Below are positions 6,556-29,009 of a stretch of 64,000 nt of DNA, piece by piece; the first letter of the stretch is position 1, and each line of letters begins with the position of its first letter. The notes beneath the pieces are model-generated. The model made no database searches, was not told the origin of the DNA, and saw only the letters and a program-made list of their open reading frames with translations. A program made the translations under genes and the position numbers. This stretch comes from Candidatus Uhrbacteria bacterium GW2011_GWE2_46_68 (GTDB taxonomy: Bacteria; Patescibacteriota; Patescibacteriia; UBA9934; GWF2-40-263). The stretch lies in contig LCMS01000005.1 in assembly GCA_001002765.1 (NCBI GenBank), positions 2,562 to 66,561 of the forward strand, read 5' to 3'.

Positions 6556-6562
6556 AAGACGT

Positions 6563-6889: not shown

Positions 6890-6893
6890 TTTT

Positions 6894-8430: not shown

Positions 8431-8435
8431 AGGTT

Positions 8436-8840: not shown

Positions 8841-8852
8841 GAATGATGAGAT

Positions 8853-9707: not shown

Positions 9708-9716
9708 GATAAAAGT

Positions 9717-10010: not shown

Positions 10011-10022
10011 ACATGATATCGT

Positions 10023-10406: not shown

Positions 10407-10448
10407 AAAGAAAAGTAGTTTTTTGAAGTTTTATTACGACAAGTTTTT

Positions 10449-11111
10449 ATGGGACATAAAGTCAATCCTAAAGCATTCCGAATTGGTGTTACCCGTGGTT
10501 GGGAAAGTGTTTGGTTTTCAAAAAATAATTATAGGACGTTTTTACAAGAAGACATTCAAATTCGAGAATACCTTCAAAAGAAATTAAAAGAAGCTTTGGT
10601 GGAACGTATAGAAGTAGAGCGATCAAGACAAGATATAAAAATCTGGGTTCATACTGCAAAACCAGGTGTGGTGATTGGGCGTGCAGGCTCAGGCATTGAA
10701 GAATTGACAAAGGAAATAAGAAACAGATTTTATCGCGGCAAAAAAGTTAGTATTCAAATGAATGTAAAAGAAGTCACACAACCAGGATTGTCTGCTCAGA
10801 TTGTTGCCCAACAAATGGCTTTTGACATTGAAAAGCGTATGCCATTTCGTCGCGTAATGAAAACAACAATCGAGCGCGTGTTAAAATCTCGTGCAGAAGG
10901 AATAAAAGTTACAATGTCAGGACGTCTGAATGGTGCAGAAATAGCACGTACAGAAACGATTGCAACAGGAAAAATTCCTTTGCAAAATCTTCGCGCAGAT
11001 ATTGATTACGCTCATGTGATGGCCCTGACTATTTATGGGGCGGTTGGAGTGAGAGTATGGATTAATCGTGGAGAAATTTTTGAAAAAACTCGTCAAGCGA
11101 GTCAAGAATAA
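10449..11111 (+). CDS. rpsC: 30S ribosomal protein S3
   Basis: 220 aa; MGHKVNPKAFRIG KH-domain N-terminus. Confidence 0.95.
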   Translation: MGHKVNPKAFRIGVTRGWESVWFSKNNYRTFLQEDIQIREYLQKKLKEALVERIEVERSRQDIKIWVHTAKPGVVIGRAGSGIEELTKEIRNRFYRGKKVSIQMNVKEVTQPGLSAQIVAQQMAFDIEKRMPFRRVMKTTIERVLKSRAEGIKVTMSGRLNGAEIARTETIATGKIPLQNLRADIDYAHVMALTIYGAVGVRVWINRGEIFEKTRQASQE

Positions 11112-11123
11112 AAGGAAGGTTTT

Positions 11124-11543
11124 ATGTTAATGCCGAAAAAAGTAAAACATCGTAAATGGCACAAAGGCCGTGCACGCAATAAGCGCATTGCTACACGAAC
11201 GACGACGATAGCTTTTGGTTCTTATGCGTTAAAAGCTCTTACAGGCGCGTGGGTCACTTCACGTCAGTTAGAAGCTGCGCGACGAGCCATGACTCGATCT
11301 GTAAAACGTGGTGGGAAAATATGGATCCGTGTTTTTCCTGACAAGCCTATTACAACAAAAGGTTCAGAAATGCCAATGGGAAAAGGTAAGGGCGCTGTAG
11401 ATCATTACGTTGTAATCGTAAAACCAGGAACGGTTTTGTTTGAAATGGATGGTATTGATGAGTCAAAAGCGCGGGAGGCTCTTTTATTGGCGGCTCATAA
11501 GTTGCCAGTAAAAGCTAAAATAGTGACGCGAGAAGTGCGTTAA
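11124..11543 (+). CDS. rplP: 50S ribosomal protein L16
   Basis: 139 aa; [11 protein letters not shown]. Confidence 0.95.
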
Positions 11544-11548
11544 AGTAT

Positions 11549-11743
11549 ATGAGTAAAAAAGAAATGCAGACAATGGATGTGGTGCAGTTACAGAAAGAAA
11601 TCCAAGATCGCCAAGCACAAAAAATGGATTTCCGTTTTCAAATTTCCTCTCATCAGTTATCTCGCGTGAGGCAGGTTCGTAAAGTCCGAAAAGAGATTGC
11701 TCAATTAAAGACCCTTTTAAGACAAAAGACTTTAGAGAAGTAA
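11549..11743 (+). CDS. rpmC: 50S ribosomal protein L29
   Basis: 64 aa; operon position and coiled-coil composition. Confidence 0.85.
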
Positions 11744-11744
11744 T

Positions 11745-12002
11745 ATGTCCAAGTCTTCCACAAAACAACATCAACTCCAACGAAAGTTCACAGGGAAGGT
11801 TGTATCTGCAAAATCACAAAAGACCATTGTCGTACAGGTTGATCGTACACTGACACACCCTCTGTATGGGAAACAGTATGTCCGCAGTCTTCGTTATAAA
11901 GTTCATGATGAAAAAGGTCAGTATCACGAAGGGGATTTGGTGACGTTTAAAGAATGTCGACCTTTATCAAAAGATAAGCGATGGCGCGTTTTATACGCCT
12001 AA
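11745..12002 (+). CDS. rpsQ: 30S ribosomal protein S17
   Basis: 85 aa; [18 protein letters not shown]. Confidence 0.93.
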
Positions 12003-12011
12003 AAAGGTTTT

Positions 12012-12383
12012 ATGGTACAACACCGAACAATGATTCATGTTGCTGATAACACGGGAGCAAAAAAATTACAGGTGATCCGTATTCATGGAGGATATCGCAA
12101 ACATTACGCAATTTTAGGTGATATTGTCACTGCAGTTGTTAAAGAAGCCGTTCCACATAGTGCAACAAAGAAAAGTGATATCGTAAAGGCAGTTATGGTG
12201 CGTACGAAAAAAGAATCACGAAGAAAAGACGGAACGTATATTCGATTTGATGAAAATGCAGCTGTTATCATTGATTCAAAAACAAAAGAACCAAAAGGGA
12301 CGCGTATTTTTGGCCCTGTTCCACGAGAGTTGCGAGGAAAAGGGTTTACAAAAATTATTTCTTTAGCACCTGAGGTTTTGTAA
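12012..12383 (+). CDS. rplN: 50S ribosomal protein L14
   Basis: 123 aa; [12 protein letters not shown]. Confidence 0.96.
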
Positions 12384-12394
12384 TCCACCATCGT

Positions 12395-12721
12395 ATGAAG
12401 ATTAAAATAGGTGATCATGTACGTGTCACAACCGGAAAAAACAAAGGAAAGGACGGGAAGGTTCAACAAGTTTTCCCCCCCTCACAACGTCTTATTGTGG
12501 AGGGTGTGAACAAGACGATCAAGCATCTTCGTAAACAACGTGGAGGCCAAAGAGGTCAAAAGATAGAATATTTTGCCCCCATTCATCTTTCAAATGTCCG
12601 TTTGATTTCACCAAAATCTGGCGTGGAAGGACGTGTGGGTTTTAAAAAGATTCACACGGAAGGTTTAGTGAAAAAGGTTCGTCAGATTTGTAAAAAAGGA
12701 ACACGTGAAGATATCGAATAA
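12395..12721 (+). CDS. rplX: 50S ribosomal protein L24
   Basis: 108 aa; KIKIGDHVRVTTGKNKGK KOW motif. Confidence 0.93.
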   Translation: MKIKIGDHVRVTTGKNKGKDGKVQQVFPPSQRLIVEGVNKTIKHLRKQRGGQRGQKIEYFAPIHLSNVRLISPKSGVEGRVGFKKIHTEGLVKKVRQICKKGTREDIE

Positions 12722-12725
12722 ATGT

Positions 12726-13265
12726 ATGTCATTTAAAGATTATTACAAAAAAGAAGTGGTTCCGAAATTACAGAAAGATTTTGATTATAAAAATATTCAC
12801 GCTGTCCCTACTATAAAGTACGTCACAGTGAATATTGGCCTTGGGGCAGGATTGAAAGACGCCAAATTTTTAGAAACAACAGAAAAAACGCTACGTCGTA
12901 TTACTGGGCAAAAACCAGTACAAACAAAGGCACGAAAGTCCATTTCAGGTTTTAAAATTCGTGGAGGAATGATAGTAGGAGGGAAGGTGACATTGCACGG
13001 GTTGCGTATGTGGGATTTTTTAGAAAAATTAATAAAAGTCACTTGTCCGCGTGTTCGTGATTTTCAAGGCCTTTCTGTGAGAAGTTTTGATGGCCAAGGG
13101 AATTATTCCATAGGTTTTAAAGAGCATATCGCTTTTCCTGAGATTCGAAGTGACGAAATCGAATTAATTCATGGATTACAAGTCACGGTCGGAACAAGTG
13201 CAAAAACCAATAAAGAAGCCGAAGCCCTTTTGCGGCATCTCGGATTTCCTTTGAAGCAAGTTTAA
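12726..13265 (+). CDS. rplE: 50S ribosomal protein L5 (ATG at 12726 preferred; the ORF opens at 12705)
   Basis: [15 protein letters not shown] matches the L5 N-terminus. Confidence 0.93.
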
Positions 13266-13272
13266 CGAACCT

Positions 13273-13458
13273 ATGGCTACAGAAAATCAAAAAGCAAAGT
13301 CTCGGATTTTTCGAAAATATGCAACACGACATGTTAATCGCTGTTGGCGTTGTGGACGTAATCACGGATTTATGAGAGATTTCGGATTATGTCGCATTTG
13401 TTTCCGTGAACTAGCTAATCGGGGAGAAATTCCCGGTGTTAGAAAATCAAGTTGGTAA
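13273..13458 (+). CDS. rpsN: 30S ribosomal protein S14 type Z (zinc-binding)
   Basis: 61 aa; CxxC...CxxC (CWRCGRNHG...CRIC). Confidence 0.93.
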
Positions 13459-13469
13459 TTAGAATTATT

Positions 13470-13865
13470 ATGATGACGGATCCTTTATCAGACATGCTCG
13501 CGCGTATTCGCAATGCATTGGATGCGCAAAAAATAACTGTAGCCGTACCTTACTCACGACTAAAATTTGGTGTGGCAAAAATTTTAGAAAAAGAAGGCTA
13601 TATTCAAAAGGCGGAAAAGTCTTCTGAATGGAAACATCCGACAATACAGATAACACTTTCCTACGAAGAAAATCATCAACCGGTGATCACACATTTGCGT
13701 CGTGTGAGCAAACCAGGCCATCGTGTATATGCGAAATCAACCGAGATGCCAAGAGTATTAACTGATTATGGTATTGCCATTCTTTCAACTTCCAATGGAC
13801 TGATGACAAATAAAGAGGCTCGGGTTCGTCGATTGGGAGGAGAGATAATTTGTGAAGTCGCCTAA
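13470..13865 (+). CDS. rpsH: 30S ribosomal protein S8
   Basis: MMTDPLSDMLARIRNA conserved N-terminus; upstream TTG at 13452 is a possible alternative start. Confidence 0.93.
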   Translation: MMTDPLSDMLARIRNALDAQKITVAVPYSRLKFGVAKILEKEGYIQKAEKSSEWKHPTIQITLSYEENHQPVITHLRRVSKPGHRVYAKSTEMPRVLTDYGIAILSTSNGLMTNKEARVRRLGGEIICEVA

Positions 13866-13877
13866 TTGTTTTGAAGT

Positions 13878-14438
13878 ATGTCACGCATTGGAAAGAAAAT
13901 CATTTTTATTCCTTCTGGAGTAAACATCACTCTTCCTGAAGATGGAGAGGTGACCGTTCAAGGGCCAAAAGGGGAGCTCAAGAATACCTTCCATTCTTGC
14001 ATCGTTTTTTCCTTTGAGGAAAAAGATGGGAAAAAAGGGATTACAACACATATCCTTCATGAAGATGATTTAAATGAACGGGCACAATGGGGAACGGCAC
14101 GCGCAATATTAGCAAATATGATAAAAGGAGTTACCGAAGGATTTGAGAGAAAGTTGGAGATAAATGGAGTCGGATATCGCGCTCAAGTATTAGAGAAAAA
14201 TATTGTTTTAAACGTAGGTTTTTCTCATCCGGTCCCTTTCGCTCTTCCAAAAGGAATTGAAGCTTCGGTTGAGGGAAATATTATCACTCTTCGTGGCATT
14301 GAAGCTCAACTCATTGGTGAAACCGCGGCACGTATCCGTAATATTCGCAAACCAGAACCCTATAAAGGAAAGGGAATAAAATATGTAGAAGAAGTCATTC
14401 GCCGTAAGGCTGGAAAAGCCGCAAAGGCGGGTGAATAA
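13878..14438 (+). CDS. rplF: 50S ribosomal protein L6
   Basis: 186 aa; [12 protein letters not shown]. Confidence 0.94.
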
Positions 14439-14442
14439 TCGT

Positions 14443-14805
14443 ATGGCGTATACTACGAAACAGAAGAAATTACATCAAACAATTCGTGCACGAAGAGTTC
14501 GTGCTCGTGTGAAGGGCACAACTGAACGCCCTCGTTTAACAGTAAAAAGAAGTTTGAAGCACATTTACGTACAAGTAATTGATGACACATTAAGAAAAAC
14601 GATCGTTTCCGCTTCAGATAAAGATTTTTCACAAATAAAAGGGAAACTTCCTACGGAAATTGCACGAGAGGTAGGAAAAATTATTGCTGAACGCGCAAAG
14701 AGTTTTGGGATACAATCGGTTGTTTTTGATCGAGGACCTTATTTATATCACGGACGTGTTGCCGCGATTGCTGAAGGAGCACGCGAGGCAGGATTAACGA
14801 TTTAA
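14443..14805 (+). CDS. rplR: 50S ribosomal protein L18 (ATG at 14443; GTG at 14431 is a possible alternative)
   Basis: [20 protein letters not shown] conserved L18 core. Confidence 0.92.
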
Positions 14806-19778: not shown

Positions 19779-19785
19779 ACGAAAA

Positions 19786-19815
19786 AACCACCCTTTCATA
19801 TCAGGGTGGTTTGCG
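19786..19815. terminator. Bidirectional intrinsic terminator (A-run, ACCACCCT/AGGGTGGT stem, T-run) between convergent recO and the WD40 gene
   Basis: Inverted repeat flanked by A- and T-tracts, seen directly. Confidence 0.55.
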
Positions 19816-19828: not shown

Positions 19829-20824
19829 CTAGATAAGCAAGGCTTCCTCTTCTTCACTGAGCGTTCCAAGTTGGCATTTTCCGAAATCCAGAATTCCAAA
19901 ACCAGGATAGTGTTCGCCGTGAGCCACTCCATACACGACCACGTATCTTCCATTTGGAGAGCAAACGATGCTGCTGATTTGAGAGAATTTTTGGATGCTT
20001 TTTATGATCTTGCGCGTGAGAAGATCTATCACACGAAGCACTTTTTGCGTTCCCACAAGGAGAAATCTTCCACAACTCGTAAAGGCAATTACCTGGATGG
20101 AAAAGTTACGATGAAGGCCTAATTTGATCGTGTGAGATTTTTTTTCTTTCAGATCCATGACCGTCAATTCCGCATCTCCGCTTTTGAAGGCAAGCGTCCG
20201 ACCGTTGGGAGAAAGGGCGATCGTTTCGGTGTCCCAATCATTTCTCGTAGCGCAAAGTTGTTTTTCTCTCCACCAATTCCAGATCAAGCGCTTGTTTACG
20301 GAAACAGTGCCATCTCCTTTGAAGCAAAGGAAGCTTTCACCATTTTGAGCCATCAATGTTCCTCTCACAATTCCGCGGTATCGTAGATGTGCGGATCGTT
20401 TTTTTTCCTTCATTGAAACGACCCGCATGGATCCGTATCGAGAAACAATGAGAATCGATGTTCCATCTGGAAAGAAGCCAAAAGAAGCAATGTGATATTC
20501 ATGTGATATTGTCTCGAAGCATTCCAAGCCGCTTTCATCCCTTATCGTGCAAAAGAACACATTATTTTCGATCGCCATGGCAATGATTTGTGGGTCCCTG
20601 GGAGAAAAGGCTATGCAGATAATTTCCTGTTGTATGGGATAAAGGAATCTTTCCACAAAATTTCCATCACCGATTTTACGAATATGGACAAAGTTGCGCT
20701 CACCAGCAGTTCTCTCAATACCCGCGAGATATTGTCCGTTGCAGGAAAAAATAGGTCCTCGAACACATTCGATATAAAGGGAAAGTGTGGGGTCTGGAAT
20801 GACAAGAGGCGGAACTCCAGTCAT
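19829..20824 (-). CDS. WD40 / PD40-like beta-propeller repeat protein (331 aa)
   Basis: Repeated FSPDG / SPNGR blade motifs; no signal peptide; start ATG is preceded by AGGAGGGTTC, identical to the next gene. Confidence 0.75.
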   Translation of the reverse strand: MTGVPPLVIPDPTLSLYIECVRGPIFSCNGQYLAGIERTAGERNFVHIRKIGDGNFVERFLYPIQQEIICIAFSPRDPQIIAMAIENNVFFCTIRDESGLECFETISHEYHIASFGFFPDGTSILIVSRYGSMRVVSMKEKKRSAHLRYRGIVRGTLMAQNGESFLCFKGDGTVSVNKRLIWNWWREKQLCATRNDWDTETIALSPNGRTLAFKSGDAELTVMDLKEKKSHTIKLGLHRNFSIQVIAFTSCGRFLLVGTQKVLRVIDLLTRKIIKSIQKFSQISSIVCSPNGRYVVVYGVAHGEHYPGFGILDFGKCQLGTLSEEEEALLI

Positions 20825-20934: not shown

Positions 20935-21903
20935 TCAAATATAGATGGCAGCTTCTTCGGGGGACAGTGATCCGAGATTGGGACCATCAAAATCAAAGAC
21001 ACTGAGTGTGCATTGGTCTTTCACTGAAGGATCGTTGTGTGTATTGACAACAAGCCTGCTCCAATCTTGAGAGAAGCAGAATGAACATACAGATTGTACA
21101 AATCCTTCTATCCTTCCCTTTTCCTGCCAAGTATCTGTACTCCAGAACCTCAATGAACAATCTGATGATCCAGATGCAATCAGTTTTCCATCCGGAGAAA
21201 ACGCGACTCCATACACAATTGATCCGTGTTCAATAGATGCACACTGCTGCGCTGTTTCCACATCCCAGATTTTTACTGTGGTATCCTCTGATCCCGACGC
21301 CATCAGGTTTCCATCCGGAGAAAACGCAACAGTGTGAATGCGACTCTTGTGTCCAGTCAGTCTTTGTTTTACTTGTCTTGTGTGTATATCAATAATTATG
21401 ACCATGTCATCCGAGTATCCTATTGCCACGAACTGTCCGTTTGGAGAAAACACAGCGGATTCGACAGACCTTCCTCTTTTTATTTCTCCAATGTCCAGTA
21501 CTAATTCTTCTGTTAGGACATTCCAGATATAGGTTTGATATCCATCACCCGAACAAAAGACGCACGTTCCATCAGGAGAAAAAGCAACAATGCGACAGAG
21601 GGCTATCCTCTGTCCAAGAAGTTGAGGATCTCTATGAGGATCATTCAAAGAAAAAATCTTCGGCAGCGATTGATTTTCCCCAACAATCAAGAGGTTCCCA
21701 TTAGGAGAAAGCGCAAATGCCTCGACGGGAATAGAGAATATTCTTTGGTGACAACAGACTCCCGTTTCCCCATGCCAAAAGCGCATGAACTGATTTTCCC
21801 CCATAGACACAATTCGACGTCCATTGTTGGAAATTCTTACGGTGCGGACATAAGACTCATGACCGACAAAAAGTCTTTTCTGTTTGGGAACAGCAAAACT
21901 CAT
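20935..21903 (-). CDS. WD40-repeat protein (about 322 aa from the ATG at 21903; a TTG at 21927 extends the ORF)
   Basis: Canonical WD40 signatures (GH...WD, TGHKSRIHTVAFSPDGNLMASGSEDTTVKIWDV); same AGGAGGGTTC-ATG context as the previous gene. Confidence 0.8.
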   Translation of the reverse strand: MSFAVPKQKRLFVGHESYVRTVRISNNGRRIVSMGENQFMRFWHGETGVCCHQRIFSIPVEAFALSPNGNLLIVGENQSLPKIFSLNDPHRDPQLLGQRIALCRIVAFSPDGTCVFCSGDGYQTYIWNVLTEELVLDIGEIKRGRSVESAVFSPNGQFVAIGYSDDMVIIIDIHTRQVKQRLTGHKSRIHTVAFSPDGNLMASGSEDTTVKIWDVETAQQCASIEHGSIVYGVAFSPDGKLIASGSSDCSLRFWSTDTWQEKGRIEGFVQSVCSFCFSQDWSRLVVNTHNDPSVKDQCTLSVFDFDGPNLGSLSPEEAAIYI

Positions 21904-21956: not shown

Positions 21957-22013
21957 GAACGAAACCTTTCGGTGCTCTGCCGAGATTTTCAGCAGTGCGC
22001 AGAAAGGGGCGAG
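21957..22013 (-). promoter_or_regulatory. Copy B of the conserved intergenic stem-loop element
   Basis: See copy A; the inner hairpin here is CTGA...TCGG, with a G-U wobble replacing the CCGA/TCGG pairing. Confidence 0.6.
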
Positions 22014-22034
22014 GACGTATTCCTCACCCTTGAT

Positions 22035-24674
22035 TTACATGAGACGCACCGGTCGTGCCGGAGGTGTCTTTGGAATCTTTTCTCCTCTCAATACTCGCTC
22101 ACAGTGAGTGGCAATCGTTTCGTATCCTTGCGGGAGCCAGCGGCGCGAACTCGTGTACTTGATGGCCGCAAGGGTCATCTTGGCGATCTGCTCTTGGGAA
22201 GCCGCAGGGAGGAAATCCCCAACCGCCTGATCGAAATCCGCTTCGCTCACAATCTCGCGCCCATCCTCAAGTGATCGCTGGGCCGCCAGTCGCACAATGA
22301 CCTCGATATCCGCACCAGACCATCCGTCTGTTGTTGCAGCCAATCTGCCGAAATCCGTTACGTCACTCTCATATCCATATCGCCGCAGCATCACAGGGAA
22401 CAAGTCACGACGCGTGGCATCATCGGGCATAAGAAGGGGGATACGTTCATCCGTACGTCCGGAGCGAATGAGTGCAGCGTCCAGTCGATCAGGCCGGTTA
22501 CTGCAGCTGATGACAAAGATCTTGCCGCGAATCTTTGGATCGGAAAGAAACTCCATCCATCCGCGACGCAGACGCGCCGATACACCGGAATCACCTTGAA
22601 ACGCATCACGTCCACTGTCTTCTTCATCCACTTCATCTCGCAAGACAACAATCGGAGCCAGGCTCCGCATAGCCGCAAACGTTTCTTCCATCTTACGCTC
22701 GGTTTCACCCACCCACATGGTGCGCACATTGCGAATCTTCACAAACAAGACGCCGCATTCGTGCGCGAACGCCTCGGCGATTGCGGTCTTTCCCGTTCCA
22801 GGGGGACCGATCAGGAGGCATCCCATGGGCACACGACGCGCATCACCGCTTTGAATCCAATCACGTACATGGGCAAAAAAGCTCTTGATGTGATCGAGTC
22901 CGGCGATTCCTTCAAATCCGTAAGCAGGATCCACAATGTCCATGAGATGACCATAGGTTCGCCGCAAGATTTTGATGCGGGCGGAGAGCACTTCTCCTGT
23001 TGTGACCACACGTTCGTCTGCTCGGGCAGACAAGAAAATTTCGAGCAGGTCTCGATAGCCGAGTCCTTGGCACAGTCGTGCGATTTCCTCAATGCCTTCT
23101 TTGGGCTTTGGGAATCGGGAAGGCACATCACCCTGTCGAGCCATTTCTTTCTCAAGTCGTTTGATCCATTGTTGCTTGGCAACAATATCCGCGTTCGACG
23201 GATTTTCGAATTGCTTTTCGAGTTCGGCGATTTCCATTTCGATATCCTTGCGTTCCTTTGCAAGTTGCTTGTCGAGAACGACGCGCAAAGCATCGCATTT
23301 CGCTACAGACTCATCATAAGCCTGCCTTGCACATACCACAGATTCAGACGGAGGGAAATTGCGAACATCGGTCTCAATCACTGAAATCTCATCGGCAAGT
23401 GTCTTTGCCTCATGTGATCCATAGGTCAAAACGGCTTGTGAAGTGGATTCTTTGCCACCGGGTTTTGCCGAAGCTCGCCGTGTCACTGATCTGTCCGCAT
23501 TCATCTTGATTCGAATCGGTTCTCCTTCCGTGCTCATAAATACTTCACCCGGGCGATCTGCGCGTTCCAGGGAAATTTCCCCGTTAGAGTAGATTTCCCA
23601 TACACGCATAGGTCGTCCAGCGTTGGTGGAGAGCCATCCGCCCTTTTTGATGGTTTTCCAGTTTTGCGGAGTGATGGCACCAAATTGCAGGGAAGGATCT
23701 TGATCACGCCTAACCTTCAAATCGAGCAATGCCTTTTGCGTTTCATTTGTTTCTCGTGCAATACGCAGGGCATCTTTGGCATTTTCCGCATGGAGTGTCA
23801 CAAAGAGTGCATGGGATTTGGCAAGCGCATCTTGCATCTGTGGATTTGCACCCAGATCCTGATCCATACGCGCGAGAATTTCGCGGCGTTTACCCATCTC
23901 AATTCGCAGTCGAGATTCTTCTTTGGAAATGAGAGCGGCATGTTCCAACTGCGACTGCCTGATTTGTTTTGCCAGATCATCACTTTCCGTAATACGCGCA
24001 AGAAACATCTTGCGTTCAGCCTCGGACGGCCGAGCGACACGGATGACCTTGAAGGGAGCATCGTGTCGACGCAGACGTTCATCAACTGCTTGGATTGCCG
24101 GAGTGCTCATGAGAATACGATGTCCGGCTGATCGAAACACAGGAGATCCCGCGAGTTGGATCAATGCCAAGCTGATCGTTGCCGATACACCCGCCATGGC
24201 ATTTCCCTCCGAGGATGGACAGAGCGCATCTGCATCCGGGAGGATCAATAGACAGGGGACAGGGGGCTTCTCTTGCGGGCATAGGGCGAGGACTTGTTGG
24301 AGAATCGGCAGGGCGGCTTGCGGGTTCCGCGGAAGATCCTGCTGCTGCATCATCTGCCTGCGTTGTTTGGCAATGGGATCGTTTACGTCCTGTTGTGTGC
24401 CTTGTGTTTTTTCAAAGATTTTTACGAATCGTTTGTGATCATCTTCACGCGGAAACGTGAAGCCACGTGCCACATCAAAGACCACGACCATTTCACCGTT
24501 TGCAAAAGCATCACAGACCACATCTTCCCAACGAAGCAAGACATCCATGTGCTCAAGTTCGGCCAGACACGGTCTGGGGAACCCATCACCCACAGAACCT
24601 ATACACAAAACAGCGGTTGCACCGCAGCGGAAACTCCGTTGTACGTCTTCAAGCCAGGACAGTGGAGTGTCCAT
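22035..24674 (-). CDS. Large AAA+ ATPase (880 aa from ATG 24674; the ORF opens at 24800): C-terminal classical AAA domain (CDC48/FtsH-like), N-terminal ~560-aa uncharacterised region with coiled coils
   Basis: Walker A GPPGTGKT; Walker B VVLRDEVDE; sensor-1/arginine-finger region SCSNRPDRLDAALIRSGRTDERI; start MDTPLSWL preceded by GAGG Shine-Dalgarno; coding sequence is GC-rich relative to the rest of the window. Confidence 0.8.
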   Translation of the reverse strand: MDTPLSWLEDVQRSFRCGATAVLCIGSVGDGFPRPCLAELEHMDVLLRWEDVVCDAFANGEMVVVFDVARGFTFPREDDHKRFVKIFEKTQGTQQDVNDPIAKQRRQMMQQQDLPRNPQAALPILQQVLALCPQEKPPVPCLLILPDADALCPSSEGNAMAGVSATISLALIQLAGSPVFRSAGHRILMSTPAIQAVDERLRRHDAPFKVIRVARPSEAERKMFLARITESDDLAKQIRQSQLEHAALISKEESRLRIEMGKRREILARMDQDLGANPQMQDALAKSHALFVTLHAENAKDALRIARETNETQKALLDLKVRRDQDPSLQFGAITPQNWKTIKKGGWLSTNAGRPMRVWEIYSNGEISLERADRPGEVFMSTEGEPIRIKMNADRSVTRRASAKPGGKESTSQAVLTYGSHEAKTLADEISVIETDVRNFPPSESVVCARQAYDESVAKCDALRVVLDKQLAKERKDIEMEIAELEKQFENPSNADIVAKQQWIKRLEKEMARQGDVPSRFPKPKEGIEEIARLCQGLGYRDLLEIFLSARADERVVTTGEVLSARIKILRRTYGHLMDIVDPAYGFEGIAGLDHIKSFFAHVRDWIQSGDARRVPMGCLLIGPPGTGKTAIAEAFAHECGVLFVKIRNVRTMWVGETERKMEETFAAMRSLAPIVVLRDEVDEEDSGRDAFQGDSGVSARLRRGWMEFLSDPKIRGKIFVISCSNRPDRLDAALIRSGRTDERIPLLMPDDATRRDLFPVMLRRYGYESDVTDFGRLAATTDGWSGADIEVIVRLAAQRSLEDGREIVSEADFDQAVGDFLPAASQEQIAKMTLAAIKYTSSRRWLPQGYETIATHCERVLRGEKIPKTPPARPVRLM

Positions 24675-24713
24675 GAAAGACCTCGAGGTTAGGTTGTTGA
24701 GAGGAGTTGTAAA

Positions 24714-24771
24714 GAACAAAACCTTTCGGTGCACTTCCGAGTTTCCTCGGCAGCGCGCAGAAAGGGCGATG
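24714..24771 (-). promoter_or_regulatory. Copy C of the conserved intergenic stem-loop element (inner hairpin CCGAG-GAAA-CTCGG)
   Basis: See copy A. Confidence 0.6.
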
Positions 24772-25404
24772 TTAGCGTGACATCGCCGTGTGACCATCAA
24801 GCCCCATCAGGTTCAAGATAGCCAACGCTTTTGAGTAATCCGTAACCCCGGTTATTTGGACAGCTCGATTTTCATGCATTCTGACCTCGAGATGAGAACC
24901 GGAAAGATCATCCATACAGTACCGGTCGGTCAAAAGGTGAATCCTTTGGTTACCCGATCCTCGCAGAGGAAGACCTTCAGTGTGGTGACGGATTTGGAAC
25001 GGACCGTCGATCAACACATCAATATGTTGGAGCAGATTTTGTGTTCCCCTTGATGCACGTCGTCCTTCCAGGCGTCTGCGTGTATATCCTGACCAAGCCA
25101 AGGTGGATAGACCAAGGATGTGAACAGCCTCGCAGAGTTCGGACAAGACAATCGCCTGATCAAACGGTTCACCGCCGGAAATGCTGATCCCTTCAATTCC
25201 GTATTCTTCTTTGGCCTTTCGGATTTTTTGCAACATTCGCCACAGAGCGATATCAGCTTTTGGATCTTGATCCAGGTAGAAGGGGGAGATGCATCCCGGG
25301 CAGCGAATCCTGCAGCCACGCACCCATAGGCAGGCCCGAAGGCCCGGTCCCATGGCACGCGTTGCCGGTTCGAAGTGCCCAAGATTGATCGTCTTTTTTC
25401 CCAT
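24772..25404 (-). CDS. nrdG: Anaerobic ribonucleotide reductase activating protein-like radical-SAM enzyme (NrdG family)
   Basis: GPGLRACLWVRGCRIRCPGC (CxxxCxxC), GISISGGEP, WSGYT, VLIDGPF, LRGSGNQ are collinear with E. coli NrdG motifs; no nrdD is visible in the window. Confidence 0.75.
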   Translation of the reverse strand: MGKKTINLGHFEPATRAMGPGLRACLWVRGCRIRCPGCISPFYLDQDPKADIALWRMLQKIRKAKEEYGIEGISISGGEPFDQAIVLSELCEAVHILGLSTLAWSGYTRRRLEGRRASRGTQNLLQHIDVLIDGPFQIRHHTEGLPLRGSGNQRIHLLTDRYCMDDLSGSHLEVRMHENRAVQITGVTDYSKALAILNLMGLDGHTAMSR

Positions 25405-25409
25405 GGCGT

Positions 25410-25625
25410 CTAGTTCTTTGCTCGGGCAGGAGCGTTTGGAATCGCCTGCGGGATTCCGGGGTCTTCGGAGCGTTCGTCCATCTCTTCGATGCCGGCGCCT
25501 AAAAGATCCAAGATGACCTTCATTCGTTCTGCGACTGCACGGCAGCCGGGACCAGGAGGGATGTCCACATCCACATTGCTTCGACCGCTTTTGGGATCAA
25601 TGATGACCGTGATGCGGCGGCTCAT
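25410..25625 (-). CDS. Small hypothetical protein (71 aa) with strong GGAGG Shine-Dalgarno; stop-start coupled to the upstream 172-aa ORF (TGA-n-ATG); ends 5 nt before nrdG
   Basis: ORF 25410..25664 trimmed to the internal Met with the best RBS; function unknown. Confidence 0.4.
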   Translation of the reverse strand: MSRRITVIIDPKSGRSNVDVDIPPGPGCRAVAERMKVILDLLGAGIEEMDERSEDPGIPQAIPNAPARAKN

Positions 25626-25626
25626 A

Positions 25627-26145
25627 TCAGACCTCCTCACGCAGATTGGTGGAGAGGATGACAAGGCCGTTACTGGTCGTTTGCTCGGTTGGCGTTCCGC
25701 CGATCAGTTGGAGCATGGCCTTGTACGCTTCGATTCGGTAGGCATCTTCCAATACCTTGGTCATTTGCTCGAGCTTGTGTGATCCTCTTTCCATTGCGTA
25801 TCCGTTCCAAAACAGAAGCAAAGTTGTTCCATCAAGCGCAACACCCAGTTGAACATCTCCTGATTGGAGCACACCTACACAAGTTCCATTGGGAGGGGCG
25901 CCACTTGCTGTCTGATAACTGGTGCTGTTGTCGTGGGAATCCTTGATTCTGCAGTTGTTGATCTTTGCTGCCGCTCGAGCGATGGCGCGCTTGGCCACTT
26001 CTTTTCGGATTGTCGACCAGTTGAGTCCTCGCAATTGACGTGCGAGCGCAGGGTCGGTCCTTTCAAGTTTCCTAAGTACATCATCCACACTGTCGCCTTG
26101 ATGCGAGAGCGTTTTTTGATGAAGTACATTCCAGTGTTGGCTCAT
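25627..26145 (-). CDS. Hypothetical protein (172 aa), first gene of the GC-rich minus-strand cluster; GGAGG RBS
   Basis: Intact ORF with protein-like composition; no recognisable motif. Confidence 0.45.
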   Translation of the reverse strand: MSQHWNVLHQKTLSHQGDSVDDVLRKLERTDPALARQLRGLNWSTIRKEVAKRAIARAAAKINNCRIKDSHDNSTSYQTASGAPPNGTCVGVLQSGDVQLGVALDGTTLLLFWNGYAMERGSHKLEQMTKVLEDAYRIEAYKAMLQLIGGTPTEQTTSNGLVILSTNLREEV

Positions 26146-26386: not shown

Positions 26387-27685
26387 ATGCCCAAATCATC
26401 GGTTTCCACGATCGGATCCTTTCTTGGTCAGACTGTGACGCTTTCCGGTTGGGCATATAATTTTCGCTCAAGCGGAAAGATTTTTTTCTTGCAGTTTCGC
26501 GATGGTACTGGTCGCATCCAGGTAGTCTATTCCAAATCCCAGTTGTCGGAGGATCAATGGGCGGCTTTGGAATCGTTAAAAATGGAGTCCTCGGTTACGA
26601 TTACAGGAGTAGTTAAACAAGACGATCGTGCTCCATCTGGTTATGAAATTGATGGCGCGGCGTTTTCTATTATTCAACTTGCTCCGGACGATTATCCTAT
26701 TTCCAAGAAAGATCATGGACCTGATTTTCTTTTGGATCATCGCCATTTGTGGTTGCGCTCCGAACGCCAATGGGCCATTCAACGCGTGCGCGATACGATC
26801 ATTCACGCTACCTATGACTTCATGCGCGAGGAAGGATTTATAAAATTCGATTCCCCGATTTTGACACCCAATGCCTGTGAGGGAACCACCGAGCTTTTTG
26901 AAATGGATTATTTTGAAGAAGCAAAGGCGTACCTCTCTCAATCAGGACAGCTTTATTTGGAAGCGGGGATCATGAGCTTTGGTCGCGTGTTTGATTTTGG
27001 TCCTGTGTTTCGTGCCGAGAAATCCAAGACACGTCGTCATTTGACCGAGTTTTGGATGATGGATGCGGAGGCCGCATTTGTGGAGCACGAAGAAAACATG
27101 CAAACACAAGAAGCCTTAGTCGTTCGCATTGTTCAAGATGTGCTTGCAAAAAATCGCGGAGAGTTGGCTTTGTTGGAACGGGATGTTTCCGCTTTGGAAA
27201 AAATACAAGCCCCGTTTGTTCATCTCACCCACAAAGATGCTGTCGTGAGACTGCGTGAGCTTGGAAGTGATATTGGAGAACGTGATGATTTGGGTGCGGA
27301 CGACGAGACTTTGTTGACGAAGCTTTATGATCGTCCGATTTTTGTGGAAAAATATCCTTCCGAGGTGAAAGCGTTTTATATGAAGCGAGATCCTGTGGAA
27401 ACAGATCGCGTGCTTGGAAATGATCTTTTGGCTCCGGAAGGATATGGAGAAATCATCGGCGGCAGTCAGCGCGAGGATGATTATGAAATTTTAAAACAAC
27501 GCATTATAGATCACGGATTACCTTTGGAACCTTTTGCTTGGTATCTTGATTTGCGCAAATACGGATCCGTTCCTCATGCAGGATTTGGGTATGGACTTGA
27601 GCGCATTGTCGGATGGATTTGCGGGACCCAACATATTCGCGAGACCATTCCATTTCCTCGCCTTATCAATCGTTTGACACCTTAA
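26387..27685 (+). CDS. asnS: Asparaginyl-tRNA synthetase
   Basis: 432 aa; N-terminal OB fold; class II motifs FRAEKSKTRRHLTEFWMMDAEAAF characteristic of AsnRS. Confidence 0.8.
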   Translation: MPKSSVSTIGSFLGQTVTLSGWAYNFRSSGKIFFLQFRDGTGRIQVVYSKSQLSEDQWAALESLKMESSVTITGVVKQDDRAPSGYEIDGAAFSIIQLAPDDYPISKKDHGPDFLLDHRHLWLRSERQWAIQRVRDTIIHATYDFMREEGFIKFDSPILTPNACEGTTELFEMDYFEEAKAYLSQSGQLYLEAGIMSFGRVFDFGPVFRAEKSKTRRHLTEFWMMDAEAAFVEHEENMQTQEALVVRIVQDVLAKNRGELALLERDVSALEKIQAPFVHLTHKDAVVRLRELGSDIGERDDLGADDETLLTKLYDRPIFVEKYPSEVKAFYMKRDPVETDRVLGNDLLAPEGYGEIIGGSQREDDYEILKQRIIDHGLPLEPFAWYLDLRKYGSVPHAGFGYGLERIVGWICGTQHIRETIPFPRLINRLTP

Positions 27686-27695: not shown

Positions 27696-29009
27696 ATGAA
27701 AGAACGTTTTTTTGTCCGTGAACTCCCGGAACACTTAGGTCAAGAAGTCGTGGTTGCCGGTTGGTTGCATCGTCTGCGGGATCTCAATAAATTCGGATTT
27801 GCTATTCTTCGAGATCGTACCGGACTTGTGCAAGTGGTTTTGGATTCGACACAACTCGAGCAACTTAAAGGATTGCAACTGGAGACTGTGCTTAAAATCA
27901 CCGGAACGGTTGTGAAAAAACAAAGTAAGGATCCGCAGGCAGAAGAGGTGGAAGTGCAGGCAAAGATCATGGAAGTACTGTCTCCTGTCACTGATGTGCT
28001 TCCCATTGAAATCAACAAAGATGATGTGGAGGCACAGTTGGATTCTATTTTGGATCATCGTGTGACTACGCTTCGTAATCTCAAACAGCGTGCGATTTTT
28101 CGTGTGCAAGCAGCGTTGGTTCATGGATATCGCGCGTATATGGAGCGCCAAGGATTTACCGAGATTTTTTTTCCTGTTTTGGCCGGAGCGGCGAGCGAAG
28201 GTGGAGCAGAATTTTTTAAAGTGGATTATTACGGGCGTGAAGCCATGCTGACTCAGTCCGCACAGCTTTATAAACAAATGATGGTGGGAGTGTATGAGGG
28301 AGTGTATGGGCTTTCGTATTCGTTTCGTGCGGAAAAATTCGCCACTTCGCGGCACCTGACCGAGTTTAATCAATTTGAGTTTGAAGTGGGATTTGTTGAT
28401 GGGATGGAAGATATTATGGCGTATGCGGAAGCTTCATTGCGCGAAATGTTGGCAACCGTGGAGCGTGAAAATACATCTGAGCTCAAACTTTTGAACGTGA
28501 CTCTTCCTCCTTTGGGCGAACATTTTCCATGTGTGCGATTAAAAGAAGCTTTGCAGTTTTATAAAGAGGGGACTGGGATTGATGAGACAAAAGAACCCGA
28601 TCTTTCCCCTGCAGCGGAAAAATGGTTGTCTACCGTATGGGCGCCGCACACACATGGATCCGGATTTGTTTTTGTAACGCATTACCCAACATCCAAACGC
28701 CCGTTTTACACGGCGGTTGATCCGCAAAATTCCGAGGAGACCTTGAGTTTTGATTTGATTGGATTTGGTAGTGAAATTATTTCCGGAGGTTTGCGTGTGC
28801 ATCGGTACGATGAACAAGTGGCGCGATTGAAAGCGAAAGGATTAAATCCGGCCGATTTTGAAGATTATCTGGCCATGCACAAATACGGTATTCCTCCTGA
28901 GGGGGGATTTGGCATGGGGCTTCAGCGTTTGACACAAAATATTTTGGGATTAGCCAATATCAAGGAGGCGACGATTTTTCCTCGCGATGTCCAGCGCCTG
29001 CGGCCGTAA
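27696..29009 (+). CDS. aspS: Aspartyl-tRNA synthetase, archaeal/short type
   Basis: 437 aa; QSAQLYKQ and FRAEKFATSRHLTEF motifs; class II core; lacks the bacterial-type insertion domain. Confidence 0.7.
   Translation: MKERFFVRELPEHLGQEVVVAGWLHRLRDLNKFGFAILRDRTGLVQVVLDSTQLEQLKGLQLETVLKITGTVVKKQSKDPQAEEVEVQAKIMEVLSPVTDVLPIEINKDDVEAQLDSILDHRVTTLRNLKQRAIFRVQAALVHGYRAYMERQGFTEIFFPVLAGAASEGGAEFFKVDYYGREAMLTQSAQLYKQMMVGVYEGVYGLSYSFRAEKFATSRHLTEFNQFEFEVGFVDGMEDIMAYAEASLREMLATVERENTSELKLLNVTLPPLGEHFPCVRLKEALQFYKEGTGIDETKEPDLSPAAEKWLSTVWAPHTHGSGFVFVTHYPTSKRPFYTAVDPQNSEETLSFDLIGFGSEIISGGLRVHRYDEQVARLKAKGLNPADFEDYLAMHKYGIPPEGGFGMGLQRLTQNILGLANIKEATIFPRDVQRLRP

What the first reader, a model, noticed from the sequence alone, without database searches (positions are those of the whole stretch)
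24772..26145. Orphan NrdG-type glycyl-radical activase with two small upstream partners
The 210-aa protein is collinear with E. coli NrdG. It has the cluster-binding CxxxCxxC, the GGEP SAM-binding site, and the WSGY and VLIDGPF blocks, plus a ~50-aa C-terminal extension. No class III RNR catalytic subunit with a glycyl-radical RxxGY motif lies nearby. The two small proteins directly upstream (172 aa and 71 aa, the latter with a strong GGAGG RBS) are the only candidate partners. In an obligately fermentative CPR-like organism, an NrdG without NrdD would be notable. It could be activating a different, possibly novel, glycyl-radical protein.
Basis: partly seen in the sequence, partly recalled or inferred. 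Interest (0 to 1): 0.55.

Follow-up and report, generated by a model that had tools for sequence, protein, structure and literature searches.

The report
Radical-SAM enzyme partnered with AAA+ ATPase
The "orphan NrdG" is not a ribonucleotide-reductase activase but the radical-SAM subunit of a conserved six-gene operon, which belongs to a widespread gene cassette that no searched paper describes and whose function is unknown.

Summary
Three tightly packed minus-strand genes (172 aa, 71 aa, 210 aa) are real and conserved. The 210-aa protein is an NrdG/PFL-activase-like radical-SAM enzyme with a roughly 55-residue C-terminal extension. The window holds no nrdD.

The interpretation needs correcting in three ways.
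- **Operon extent:** the operon continues downstream into an 879-aa AAA+ ATPase and two WD40 proteins, then a terminator-like hairpin.
- **The small proteins:** they are divergent DUF1257 (Ycf35) and DUF2997 homologues (HHalign about 90% plus conserved gene order). They are not glycyl-radical or GrcA-like proteins.
- **The enzyme's clade:** it lies outside the NrdD-linked NrdG clade. Its relatives sit beside AAA+ ATPases of three different clades that share a related, degenerate N-terminal AAA-like domain, often with DUF1257 and DUF2997.

Within each Uhrbacteria-type locus, the WD40 paralogues share a locus-specific C-terminal tail although their bodies have diverged.

My best model is a protein-directed radical-SAM enzyme coupled to an AAA+ unfoldase that handles tail-tagged clients. 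It may serve in stress response or biological conflict. The substrate and chemistry are inferred, not shown. PADLOC and the searched literature contain no description of the cassette.

The parts
25627..26145 (-). 172-aa protein. It is a divergent DUF1257 (Ycf35)-like protein with a roughly 35-residue helical insertion after the N-terminal MS[RQ]H[WY] strand.
   Evidence: The ORF is. The family has 56 representatives. HHalign of the 53-sequence family against the DUF1257 set gives 91% probability and E 1e-6 over residues 52-170. No single member reaches Pfam DUF1257. The AF2 model has pLDDT 78 and no PDB fold match. It holds the same position as DUF1257 in related cassettes.
25410..25625 (-). 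71-aa protein. It is a divergent DUF2997-like protein with a single conserved Cys (C28). A GGAGG ribosome-binding site lies at 25636..25632.
   Evidence: The sequence is. HHalign of 10 Uhrbacteria-type sequences against the DUF2997 set gives 89.8% probability and E 1.8e-6, with the conserved Cys aligned. The DUF2997 set is validated by Pfam PF11211 at 1.3e-14 and by the annotated phage DUF2997 at 2e-11.
24772..25404 (-). 210-aa radical-SAM enzyme. It is NrdG/PFL-AE-like (Fer4_12) and has a roughly 55-residue C-terminal extension.
   Evidence: Pfam and NCBIfam results are: TIGR02491 scores 87.1 bits against a cutoff of 126.1. The AF2 model has pLDDT 88, and its best PDB fold match is PFL-AE 3CB8 at E 2.9e-7. 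It falls outside the NrdD-linked clade.
22035..24674 (-). 879-aa AAA+ ATPase. It has a degenerate D1-like N-domain (about residues 5-238), a long coiled-coil-rich middle region, and an active classic-clade AAA domain. The active domain carries Walker A GPPGTGKT, pore loop MWVG and Walker B DEVDEE.
   Evidence: Pfam AAA scores 7e-28 and AAA_lid_3 also matches. The N-domain is homologous to the N-domains of the Clp-like AAA partners of related radical-SAM genes (HHalign 97.8%, E 1.2e-12), while the control against active AAA domains gives 3%. It weakly matches the Rix7 AAA domain. It matches phrog_8638 at 9e-41. The motifs were read from the translation.
20935..21903 (-). WD40 beta-propeller protein 1 (322 aa). 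Its C-terminal tail is ...LGSLSPEEAAIYI.
   Evidence: Pfam WD40 scores 1.7e-37. The tail is shared with paralogue 2: 58% identity over the last 12 residues against 18% in the body.
19829..20824 (-). WD40 beta-propeller protein 2 (331 aa). Its C-terminal tail is ...LGTLSEEEEALLI.
   Evidence: Pfam beta-propeller families match.
19785..19812 (-). Terminator-like hairpin with a 10-bp stem and a T-run. It probably marks the end of the six-gene transcription unit.
   Evidence: It lies 17 nt downstream of the stop codon of WD40 gene 2.

Best explanation
**What it is (shown).** The 210-aa protein is not a class III RNR activase. It is the radical-SAM subunit of a six-gene operon: DUF1257-like (172 aa), DUF2997-like (71 aa), the NrdG-like radical-SAM enzyme, an AAA+ ATPase, and two WD40 proteins. 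This operon is a Patescibacteria-specific version of a widespread cassette.

In that cassette, a long-form NrdG-like radical-SAM enzyme sits beside an AAA+ ATPase that carries a characteristic degenerate N-terminal AAA-like domain. DUF1257 and DUF2997 are often present too.

**How it probably works (inferred).**
1. The enzyme keeps the [4Fe-4S]/SAM site and the fold of glycyl-radical-enzyme activases. It therefore most likely cleaves SAM reductively and abstracts a hydrogen atom from a residue of a protein substrate.
2. The AAA+ protein has an intact Walker A, Walker B and an aromatic pore loop. I take it to be a polypeptide-threading motor that either is the substrate or presents it.
3. The WD40 proteins share a locus-specific C-terminal tail. 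I take them to be clients or adaptors recognised through that tail.
4. DUF1257 and DUF2997 form a small-subunit pair that belongs to the AAA module rather than to the radical-SAM enzyme.

**Possible role (inferred).** The patchy, mobile and modular distribution points to a stress-response or biological-conflict role. The identity of the modified residue and the outcome of the modification are unknown.
For: **Operon.**
- A terminator-like hairpin follows the last WD40 gene.
- The same trio, with AAA and WD40 genes, occurs in different chromosomal contexts in other Uhrbacteria.
- One genome carries two copies.

**Not NrdG.**
- The score falls below the TIGR02491 cutoff.
- In an NJ tree of 198 sequences, the NrdD-adjacent ones form a clade of 44 that contains no AAA- or DUF-linked member.
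- 93 of the 154 sequences outside that clade are linked to AAA or DUF genes.
- The C-terminal extension has a median of 55-62 residues in the linked groups, against 20 in the NrdD-adjacent group.

**Small proteins.** HHalign gives 91% and 89.8% to DUF1257 and DUF2997, and gene order is conserved.

**Shared AAA N-domain.** It is found across three AAA clades.

**Activase-like fold.** The best PDB fold match is PFL-AE 3CB8, and PFL-AE is the only PDB sequence hit.

**Tails.** WD40 bodies are 16-46% identical, while the last 12 residues are 33-75% identical, with locus-specific tails. In the canonical cassette, the AAA and the HhH membrane protein both end in GRx[ILV]D[FY].

**Mobility and modularity.**
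- Cassettes occur in viral contigs and phages.
- One type has helicase, DUF4145 and RNase III neighbours.
- GC is 52-53% in the locus against about 45% in the flanks.
Against: - No substrate is identified. No invariant Gly or other residue is shared by all candidate partners.
- The link between the Uhrbacteria small proteins and DUF1257/DUF2997 rests on profile-profile scores of about 90% plus synteny. Profile-to-sequence searches fail.
- 52 of the 154 sequences outside the NrdD clade have no AAA gene nearby. Many of these are on short contigs, and several are in cyanobacteria.
- The shared C-terminal tail motif also occurs in phage AAA cassettes that lack the radical-SAM gene. The tails therefore say nothing direct about the radical-SAM step.
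- No PADLOC model matches.
- The cassette sits at the same chromosomal site in a relative whose enzyme is only 47% identical. That looks more like vertical inheritance than a typical defence island.
- The whole genome could not be searched for nrdD.
Confidence: 0.6

Rival explanations
1. It is a genuine NrdG whose NrdD partner lies elsewhere in the genome, so the neighbouring genes are irrelevant.
For: The best family match is NrdG (TIGR02491 1.1e-24, phrog_626 1.3e-23). The match is collinear with E. coli-type NrdG. The rest of the genome could not be searched.
Against: The score of 87 bits is below the equivalog cutoff of 126. The sequence lies outside the NrdD-adjacent clade. It carries the 55-residue extension typical of the AAA-linked group. 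It is strictly syntenic with the 172-aa and 71-aa genes in all 9 or more related loci, and none of those has nrdD within 7-10 kb.
Confidence: 0.05
2. The enzyme installs a glycyl radical on one of the two small upstream proteins, which would then be a new, small glycyl-radical protein comparable to GrcA.
For: The trio is tightly coupled in translation and always conserved together in Patescibacteria. G91 and G101 are nearly invariant in the 172-aa family. The enzyme's fold and closest relatives are glycyl-radical activases.
Against: The Gly aligned with G101 is replaced in many DUF1257 proteins of radical-SAM-linked cassettes, for example 'IEIAF' in L094. The 71-aa family has no conserved Gly, only a Cys. 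The RVxG[FWY]-like 'WNGYA' is not conserved. DUF1257 and DUF2997 occur without a radical-SAM gene in phage RHph_I4 and in the cyanobacterial fed7 cluster (PMC4284462). The model has no similarity to any GRE fold.
Confidence: 0.1
3. The enzyme acts on a nucleotide or nucleic acid, as QueE or viperin do. It would make a modified base or nucleotide as the effector of a conflict system, with the AAA+ protein as sensor or regulator.
For: QueE is the second-best structural match (E 2.6e-4). There are weak QueE and viperin family hits. The canonical cassette encodes a membrane protein with a ComEA-type HhH DNA-binding domain right next to the radical-SAM gene. One cassette type is flanked by an SF1 helicase, DUF4145 and RNase III.
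Against: Sequence and fold are clearly closer to protein-directed activases: NrdG at 1e-24 against QueE at 6e-3, and PFL-AE is the only PDB sequence hit. The N-terminal GPGxR loop of activases is invariant. Its role in peptide binding is recalled from the PFL-AE literature and was not tested here. The Uhrbacteria version has no HhH protein.
Confidence: 0.15
4. The radical-SAM-like protein is mainly a redox, Fe-S or SAM-sensing regulatory subunit of the AAA+/DUF1257/DUF2997 module. It would be functionally comparable to the ferredoxin Fed7 found next to ycf35 and DUF2997 in cyanobacteria, and would have no protein-modifying chemistry.
For: DUF2997-DUF1257 pairs are found next to either a [4Fe-4S] ferredoxin (PMC4284462) or this [4Fe-4S] radical-SAM protein. 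The AAA-DUF1257-DUF2997 module exists without the radical-SAM gene.
Against: All catalytic signatures for SAM binding and cleavage are invariant across the family: CxxxCxxC, GGEP and GSxNQ. That argues for retained catalysis.
Confidence: 0.1

Closest known systems
NrdG, the activase of class III (anaerobic) ribonucleotide reductase (TIGR02491 / NF008335)
   Same: It has the same Fer4_12 radical-SAM core: CxxxCxxC, GGEP, WSGY, LIDGPF and GSxNQ. It is collinear over about 140 residues and NrdG is the best-scoring named family.
   Different: It scores below the equivalog cutoff. It has an extra 55-residue C-terminal subdomain. It has no adjacent NrdD and lies outside the NrdD-linked clade. Its partners are AAA+, DUF1257 and DUF2997 genes instead.
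Pyruvate formate-lyase activating enzyme (PflA; PDB 3CB8/3C8F)
   Same: It is the best structural match (E 2.9e-7, 140 columns) and the only PDB sequence hit for the family profile (7e-11).
   Different: Identity is only about 20%. No PFL-like glycyl-radical enzyme is nearby, and the C-terminal region differs.
AAA - DUF1257 (Ycf35) - DUF2997 cassettes of bacteria and phages, and the cyanobacterial DUF2997-ycf35-fed7 cluster
   Same: The gene families and order match. The canonical form AAA(about 545 aa)-DUF1257-DUF2997 occurs in about 45 retrieved loci and in Rhizobium phage RHph_I4 as annotated. The ycf35/DUF2997/fed7 cluster is described in PMC4284462. ycf35 and ycf46 are each retained mainly in marine and lost in freshwater red-algal plastids (PMC5940233).
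   Different: The Uhrbacteria proteins are too diverged for Pfam to detect them. The AAA is 879 aa with a long insert. WD40 genes replace the HhH membrane protein. The equation of the canonical AAA with Ycf46 is recalled from memory and was not tested here. None of these cassettes has a known function.
Shared C-terminal docking tails of proteasome activators, for example the GQYL tail of both Mpa and PafE/Bpa in mycobacteria (recalled from memory)
   Same: Different proteins of one system end in the same short C-terminal peptide. In the canonical cassette, the AAA and the HhH protein share a tail. In the Uhrbacteria cassette, all WD40 paralogues share one.
   Different: No proteasome-like partner is present and the receptor for the tails is unknown. 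This is an analogy only.
MoxR-vWA-beta-propeller ternary NTPase conflict systems (recalled from memory; Pfam bpMoxR PF20030)
   Same: An AAA+ ATPase is encoded together with one or several diverging beta-propeller proteins.
   Different: The AAA is of the classic clade, not MoxR. There is no vWA protein, and those systems do not include a radical-SAM enzyme, DUF1257 or DUF2997.
GrcA/YfiD spare-part glycyl-radical protein
   Same: It is a small protein encoded near an activase-like gene.
   Different: There is no RVxG[FWY] motif, no sequence match and no fold match.

Membership tests
NrdG (class III RNR activase) | Radical-SAM CxxxCxxC cluster motif and SAM-binding GGEP motif | tested here: met
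   C31/C35/C38 and G77-G78-E79-P80 are present and invariant or nearly so in the family.
NrdG (class III RNR activase) | Score at or above the curated equivalog cutoff (TIGR02491 126.1 bits; NF008335 199 bits) | tested here: not met
   The scores are 87.1 and 53.1 bits.
NrdG (class III RNR activase) | Genomic partnership with NrdD | tested here: not met
   No NrdD is found in the 64-kb window at E<=10, nor within 7-10 kb in 9 related loci. The whole genome could not be searched with these tools.
NrdG (class III RNR activase) | Phylogenetic placement with NrdD-linked sequences | tested here: not met
   In the NJ tree, the NrdD-adjacent clade of 44 contains no AAA-linked, DUF-linked or Uhrbacteria-type sequence.
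Glycyl-radical-enzyme activases (PflA/NrdG-type) in the broad sense | Activase-type fold and N-terminal GxGxR loop | tested here: met
   The best PDB fold match is PFL-AE 3CB8. G19-P20-G21-x-R23 is invariant.
Glycyl-radical-enzyme activases (PflA/NrdG-type) in the broad sense | A cognate protein with a C-terminal glycyl-radical motif (RVxG[FWY]) and generation of a glycyl radical | tested here: inconclusive
   No such motif is conserved in the 172-aa, 71-aa, AAA or WD40 proteins. Radical formation itself cannot be tested in silico.
DUF1257 (PF06868, Ycf35) | Match to the Pfam model | tested here: not met
   None of the 53 family members matches, even at E<=1.
DUF1257 (PF06868, Ycf35) | Profile-profile homology and equivalent gene position | tested here: met
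   HHalign gives 91% (79% against a stricter core set) over residues 52-170. The reference set hits the annotated phage DUF1257 at 1.4e-8. The gene lies directly upstream of the DUF2997-like gene, as in other cassettes.
DUF2997 (PF11211) | Match to the Pfam model | tested here: not met
   There is no Pfam hit for the 71-aa protein.
DUF2997 (PF11211) | Profile-profile homology including the single conserved Cys; size of about 65-75 aa | tested here: met
   HHalign gives 89.8% and E 1.8e-6, with the Cys aligned. Members of the reference set hit PF11211 at 1.3e-14.
GrcA-like spare-part / glycyl-radical domain | Gly_radical domain or RVxGY motif | tested here: not met
   There are no Pfam or NCBIfam hits. 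The motif is not conserved. There is no fold match.
Known anti-phage defence systems (PADLOC-DB v2) | Match of the system's proteins to PADLOC models beyond generic AAA similarity | tested here: not met
   Only generic AAA hits (IetA, TRIP13) and a marginal pVip hit appear. Nothing matches the 172-aa, 71-aa, DUF1257, DUF2997 or HhH proteins.

The most novel reading that the evidence does not exclude
The long-form NrdG-like enzymes define a new kind of radical-SAM/AAA+ machine. In it, an activase-type enzyme installs a radical or another radical-derived modification on a non-GRE protein. That protein could be the degenerate D1-like N-domain of the partner AAA+ ATPase, a tail-tagged client, or the Cys of DUF2997. 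The modification would be coupled to ATP-driven unfolding. This would be a protein-radical chemistry outside the classical glycyl-radical-enzyme barrel. It would also give the first biochemical handle on the Ycf35/DUF2997 (and possibly Ycf46) genes of cyanobacteria, plastids and phages.
Probability: 0.2. Interest if true: 0.85.

Novelty: new variant of a known kind. Interest (0 to 1): 0.62.

Why it matters
Glycyl-radical activases are thought of as dedicated partners of a handful of large glycyl-radical enzymes. Here a sizeable clade of NrdG-like enzymes never sits beside NrdD. It occurs in CPR bacteria, cyanobacteria, Bacillota, Bacteroidota, Planctomycetota, actinomycetes, some archaea and viral contigs.

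Instead, this clade is wired to AAA+ ATPases of three different clades that share one N-terminal domain. It is also wired to DUF1257 (Ycf35) and DUF2997, two families that have stayed functionally blank since the first cyanobacterial and plastid genomes.

Automated annotation calls these genes 'anaerobic ribonucleoside-triphosphate reductase activating protein'. That is misleading for metabolic reconstruction of CPR organisms. If the enzyme does modify a protein that is handled by the AAA+ motor, it would be a new type of radical-SAM protein chemistry and a route into the function of Ycf35-type genes. If it is a conflict system, it adds a radical-SAM/AAA+ architecture that current defence catalogues lack.

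Tried and rejected
1. **'WNGYA' as a glycyl-radical motif in the 172-aa protein.** Rejected. It reads WNVYA in close homologues and is absent in L007 and L010.

2. **Direct family searches of the two small proteins.** Pfam, NCBIfam, PADLOC and PHROGs gave nothing. The word-indexed homologue search found only close relatives. The exhaustive search was needed to build a usable profile.

3. **Iterative HMM search from the Uhrbacteria 71-aa family.** It did not reach DUF2997 at E 1e-3. Only profile-profile comparison did.

5. **First comparison of AAA N-domains.** It failed because of poor domain extraction and a contaminating genuine ClpB. It was redone with cleaned sets. The canonical N-domain against the Uhrbacteria N-domain remains undetectable directly and is linked only through the Clp-like set.

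6. **A conserved Gly ('xDxxxG[FL]') in the AAA N-domain as a universal radical site.** It is present in three N-domain families but absent in the CbbX-like one, so it is not universal.

7. **The coiled-coil partner (CC7) of the CbbX-type cassettes as a hidden DUF1257 or DUF2997.** HHalign gives 7% or less.

8. **The GRx[ILV]D[FY] tail as the radical-SAM substrate.** This is weakened, because similar tails occur in phage AAA cassettes that lack the radical-SAM gene.

9. **Literature.** No paper in the library links DUF1257, DUF2997, Ycf46 or Fer4_12 to a radical-SAM/AAA+ system.
Full report
**1. Source and observation**

The window comes from a Candidatus Uhrbacteria (Patescibacteria/CPR) genome. 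The 210-aa protein is encoded identically on GCA_001002565.1 contig LCMG01000003.1 and on 20 other contigs.

- 172 aa at 26145..25627;
- 71 aa at 25625..25410, with a GGAGG at 25636..25632;
- 210 aa at 25404..24772, separated from its neighbours by gaps of 1 and 5 nt.

The 210-aa protein has C31-x3-C35-x2-C38, SGGEP, WSGY and VLIDGPF. It matches Pfam Fer4_12 at 1.5e-27. It matches E. coli-type NrdG (NF008335) collinearly, residues 18-158 to model positions 13-153 of 154. An NrdD profile finds nothing in the 64-kb window even at E<=10.

**2. The operon is larger than described**

Two further sets of genes lie directly downstream on the same strand:
- An 879-aa AAA+ ATPase (24674..22035) matches Pfam AAA at 7e-28 plus AAA_lid_3.
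- Two WD40 beta-propeller genes follow (21903..20935 and 20824..19829).

A 10-bp-stem terminator-like hairpin with a T-run lies 17 nt after the last WD40 stop codon.

The AAA domain has Walker A GPPGTGKT, an aromatic pore loop (MWVG) and Walker B DEVDEE, all read from the translation. That is what a substrate-threading classic-clade AAA looks like, although the interpretation rests on general knowledge of AAA+ proteins.

The locus has 52-53% GC, against about 45% in the flanks.

**3. Conservation in Patescibacteria**

Radical-SAM homologues at 41-52% identity occur in many Uhrbacteria and Patescibacteria assemblies. In every locus I fetched, a protein of about 175 aa and one of about 70 aa precede the radical-SAM gene. 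In most, an AAA+ ATPase of 577-912 aa and one to five WD40 genes follow.

| Locus | Notable feature |
|---|---|
| L007, L010 | Different chromosomal neighbourhoods |
| L092 | Trio on a metagenome contig, cut just after the radical-SAM gene |
| L252 | AAA gene split into a 306-aa N-domain protein and a 577-aa AAA protein |
| L253 | Same asnS/scpAB neighbourhood as the window, at 47% radical-SAM identity |
| L254 | Four proteins share one C-terminal tail |
| L255 | Trio without an AAA gene within 8 kb |

One genome, GCA_026395055.1, carries two copies (L007 and L252). The exhaustive profile search found 56 representatives of the 172-aa family at the 50% clustering level. These are real, selected genes.

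**4. What the small proteins are**

No library recognises them directly. The lead came from an Acidobacteria locus (L009). There, a radical-SAM homologue lies in a gene block with DUF1257, DUF2997 and AAA genes.

From 251 loci retrieved with the radical-SAM alignment, I built DUF1257 and DUF2997 profiles. These profiles are genuine:
- A member hits Pfam PF11211 at 1.3e-14.
- They hit the independently annotated DUF1257 and DUF2997 proteins of Rhizobium phage RHph_I4 at 1.4e-8 and 2e-11.

The profile-profile comparisons gave the following results:
- The 53-sequence family of the 172-aa protein against DUF1257 gives 91% probability and E 1e-6 over residues 52-170. A stricter core set gives 79%.
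- Ten Uhrbacteria-type 71-aa proteins against DUF2997 give 89.8% and E 1.8e-6, with the single conserved Cys aligned.

Together with the identical gene position, I accept remote homology with about 0.8 confidence. Profile-to-sequence searches do not bridge the gap.

The 172-aa model (pLDDT 78) is an alpha/beta protein with no significant PDB neighbour.

The glycyl-radical idea does not hold up:
- 'WNGYA' is not conserved.
- The 71-aa family has no conserved Gly.
- The Gly that is nearly invariant in the 172-aa family (G101, 'QLGV') is replaced in many cassette-linked DUF1257 proteins.
- DUF1257 and DUF2997 also exist without any radical-SAM gene, in phage RHph_I4 and in the cyanobacterial DUF2997-ycf35-fed7 cluster (PMC4284462).

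**5. What the radical-SAM enzyme is**

It scores 87.1 bits on TIGR02491, where the cutoff is 126.1.

I built a neighbour-joining tree of 198 non-identical homologues and labelled each by its gene neighbourhood.
- The NrdD-adjacent sequences form one clade of 44: 25 adjacent to NrdD and 19 with no call, mostly on viral contigs. That clade contains no AAA- or DUF-linked sequence.
- Of the 154 sequences outside it, 93 are next to AAA+, DUF1257 or DUF2997 genes.

The number of residues after the GSxNQ motif has a median of 20 in the NrdD-adjacent group. It is 55-62 in the linked groups and 57 in the window protein.

The AF2 model (pLDDT 88) is most similar to PFL-activating enzyme (3CB8, E 2.9e-7), followed by QueE. 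The family profile hits only PFL-AE among PDB sequences. The CxxxCxxC, GPGxR, GGEP, LIDG and GSxNQ motifs are invariant or nearly so.

The enzyme therefore works like a glycyl-radical-enzyme activase at the level of cofactor and fold, but it fails the membership tests for NrdG.

**6. The wider cassette**

The long-form enzymes occur in at least four architectures:
- **(a) Canonical:** AAA (about 545 aa) - DUF1257 - DUF2997 - X - rSAM, or X - rSAM - AAA - DUF1257 - DUF2997. About 45 loci, including viral contigs.
- **(b) CbbX-like:** rSAM - coiled-coil protein - multi-domain CbbX/SpoVK-like AAA.
- **(c) Clp-like:** a ClpB-D2-like AAA_2 protein directly upstream of rSAM. In some viral contigs an SF1 helicase, a DUF4145 protein and an RNase III-like gene are also present.
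- **(d) Uhrbacteria type:** the form found in this window.

X is a membrane protein with a ComEA-type HHH_3 domain.

The N-terminal domain of the Uhrbacteria AAA (about residues 5-238) is homologous to the N-domains of the other partner ATPases:
- 97.8% and E 1.2e-12 against the Clp-like partners.
- 88.8% against the CbbX-like partners.
- 97.9% between the Clp-like and CbbX-like N-domains.
- 89.7% between the canonical and Clp-like N-domains.
- 2-15% in controls against active AAA domains.

The N-domain weakly resembles an AAA domain (Rix7, E 0.002) and lacks a Walker A motif, so it is best described as a degenerate D1-like domain.

The constant partner of this radical-SAM clade is therefore an AAA+ ATPase that carries this particular N-domain. 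DUF1257 and DUF2997 are frequent but not universal. The AAA-DUF1257-DUF2997 module also occurs alone in phages.

**7. Shared C-terminal tails**

In the canonical cassette, the AAA ends in ...RGGR[TAS][ILV]D[FV]. The otherwise unrelated protein X ends in ...GRx[ILV]D[FYIL].

In the Uhrbacteria type, the WD40 paralogues of one locus share a tail that differs between loci:
- ...EEAxxI in the window;
- ...DLPV in L007;
- ...LDEAFV in L253;
- ...WADASFG in L254, where a 370-aa protein without a WD40 annotation carries it too.

Body identity is 16-46%, while identity over the last 12 residues is 33-75%. This is the signature of a selected, co-evolving address tag.

Similar tails occur in phage cassettes that lack the radical-SAM gene: Corndog gp96 ends ...RVLDL, gp95 contains SGRAIDF, and the RHph_I4 AAA ends ...MSLDS. 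I therefore assign tail recognition to the AAA module, not to the radical-SAM enzyme.

**8. Mechanism**

Shown:
- gene content and conservation;
- the separate clade;
- an intact radical-SAM site;
- intact ATPase motifs;
- the shared N-domain;
- the shared tails.

Inferred:
- The enzyme abstracts a hydrogen atom from a protein substrate.
- The AAA+ motor is the substrate or presents it.
- The WD40 proteins are tail-tagged clients or adaptors.
- DUF1257 and DUF2997 are small subunits of the AAA module.

The biological role is open. Some features suggest a conflict or stress system:
- patchy distribution;
- presence in phages and satellites;
- several copies per genome;
- variable accessory genes;
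- deviant GC.

Other features argue against a simple defence island:
- no PADLOC match;
- conservation at one chromosomal site between distant relatives;
- plastid and cyanobacterial Ycf35 relatives.

**9. Novelty**

Full-text searches found no description of this association. DUF2997 and DUF1257 appear in only five papers, and none assigns a function.

I rate the finding as a new variant of a known kind: an activase-type radical-SAM enzyme in a new, conserved context. Interest is 0.62. The most novel reading is a new protein-radical/AAA+ machine, at a probability of about 0.2.

**10. Limits**

- The genome outside the window could not be searched for nrdD.
- Locus retrieval was capped at the best 80 per collection, so the association frequencies are sample-based.
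- ORF calling in the fetched loci was my own simple caller.
- The tree is a BLOSUM-distance NJ tree without support values.
- The homology of the small proteins is remote.
- Several comparisons to known systems are recalled from memory and are marked as such: the Mpa/PafE tails, the MoxR ternary systems, the name Ycf46, and the role of the GxGxR loop.

Noticed in passing
window 26387-27685 and 27696-29009 (+): Two tandem class II aminoacyl-tRNA synthetase paralogues (432 and 437 aa), both with tRNA_anti-codon and tRNA-synt_2 domains (AsnS/AspS-type). They are transcribed divergently from the cassette. The same pair flanks the cassette in a distant relative (L253).
   Followed up: partly
window 22000-26000: GC content is 52-53% across the AAA, radical-SAM and small-protein genes. 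The flanks are at about 45%, and the ribosomal-protein region is at about 40%.
   Followed up: partly
L009 (Acidobacteria, GCA_016178945.1) 1-14582: A dense block holds three AAA proteins, one of them fused to a Ser/Thr kinase domain, plus two FGE-sulfatase-domain proteins, DUF1257, DUF2997 and the radical-SAM gene. A Terminase_6N gene follows shortly after, separated by one small (76-aa) gene. This may be a prophage edge or a phage-borne system.
   Followed up: no
L187, L191, L205 (IMG/VR viral contigs), about 1-9000: A conserved block reads SF1 helicase (AAA_11/AAA_12) - DUF4145 protein - 362-aa protein - Clp-like AAA - radical-SAM - RNase III-like protein. It looks like a conflict-system operon.
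   Followed up: partly
L021, L037, L038, L042, L067, L073 (and L083, where the second gene is further away) (Nostocales and other cyanobacteria): A separate subgroup of NrdG-like proteins lacks the GSxNQ motif. In most of these loci a second radical-SAM protein of about 265-350 aa lies directly upstream, and no AAA gene is nearby. Its function is unknown.
   Followed up: no
L256 (Mycobacterium phage Corndog) gp96-gp93: Corndog gp96 is a full-length relative of the canonical cassette AAA. The next gene, gp95, contains SGRAIDF and ends in ...GYALDFEEVV, which echoes the GRxxDF tails of the bacterial cassettes. No DUF1257 or DUF2997 was detectable in gp95-gp93.
   Followed up: partly
L252 8650-11391 (GCA_026395055.1): In the second cassette copy of this genome, the AAA gene is split into a separate 306-aa N-domain protein and a 577-aa AAA protein. 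This shows that the N-domain is an autonomous unit.
   Followed up: partly
L010, L092, L252-L254; alignment A4: Many Uhrbacteria-type DUF2997-like and DUF1257-like proteins end in Gly-rich tails (...GGGT, ...GGGS, ...KGG, ...GGAR), reminiscent of diglycine ends. The two window proteins do not (...ARAKN, ...LREEV).
   Followed up: no
L257 (Streptococcus satellite phage Javan368) 4971-6548: The closest phage-collection relative of the canonical AAA (35% identity, 91% coverage) is encoded on a 14-kb phage satellite next to uncharacterised genes.
   Followed up: no
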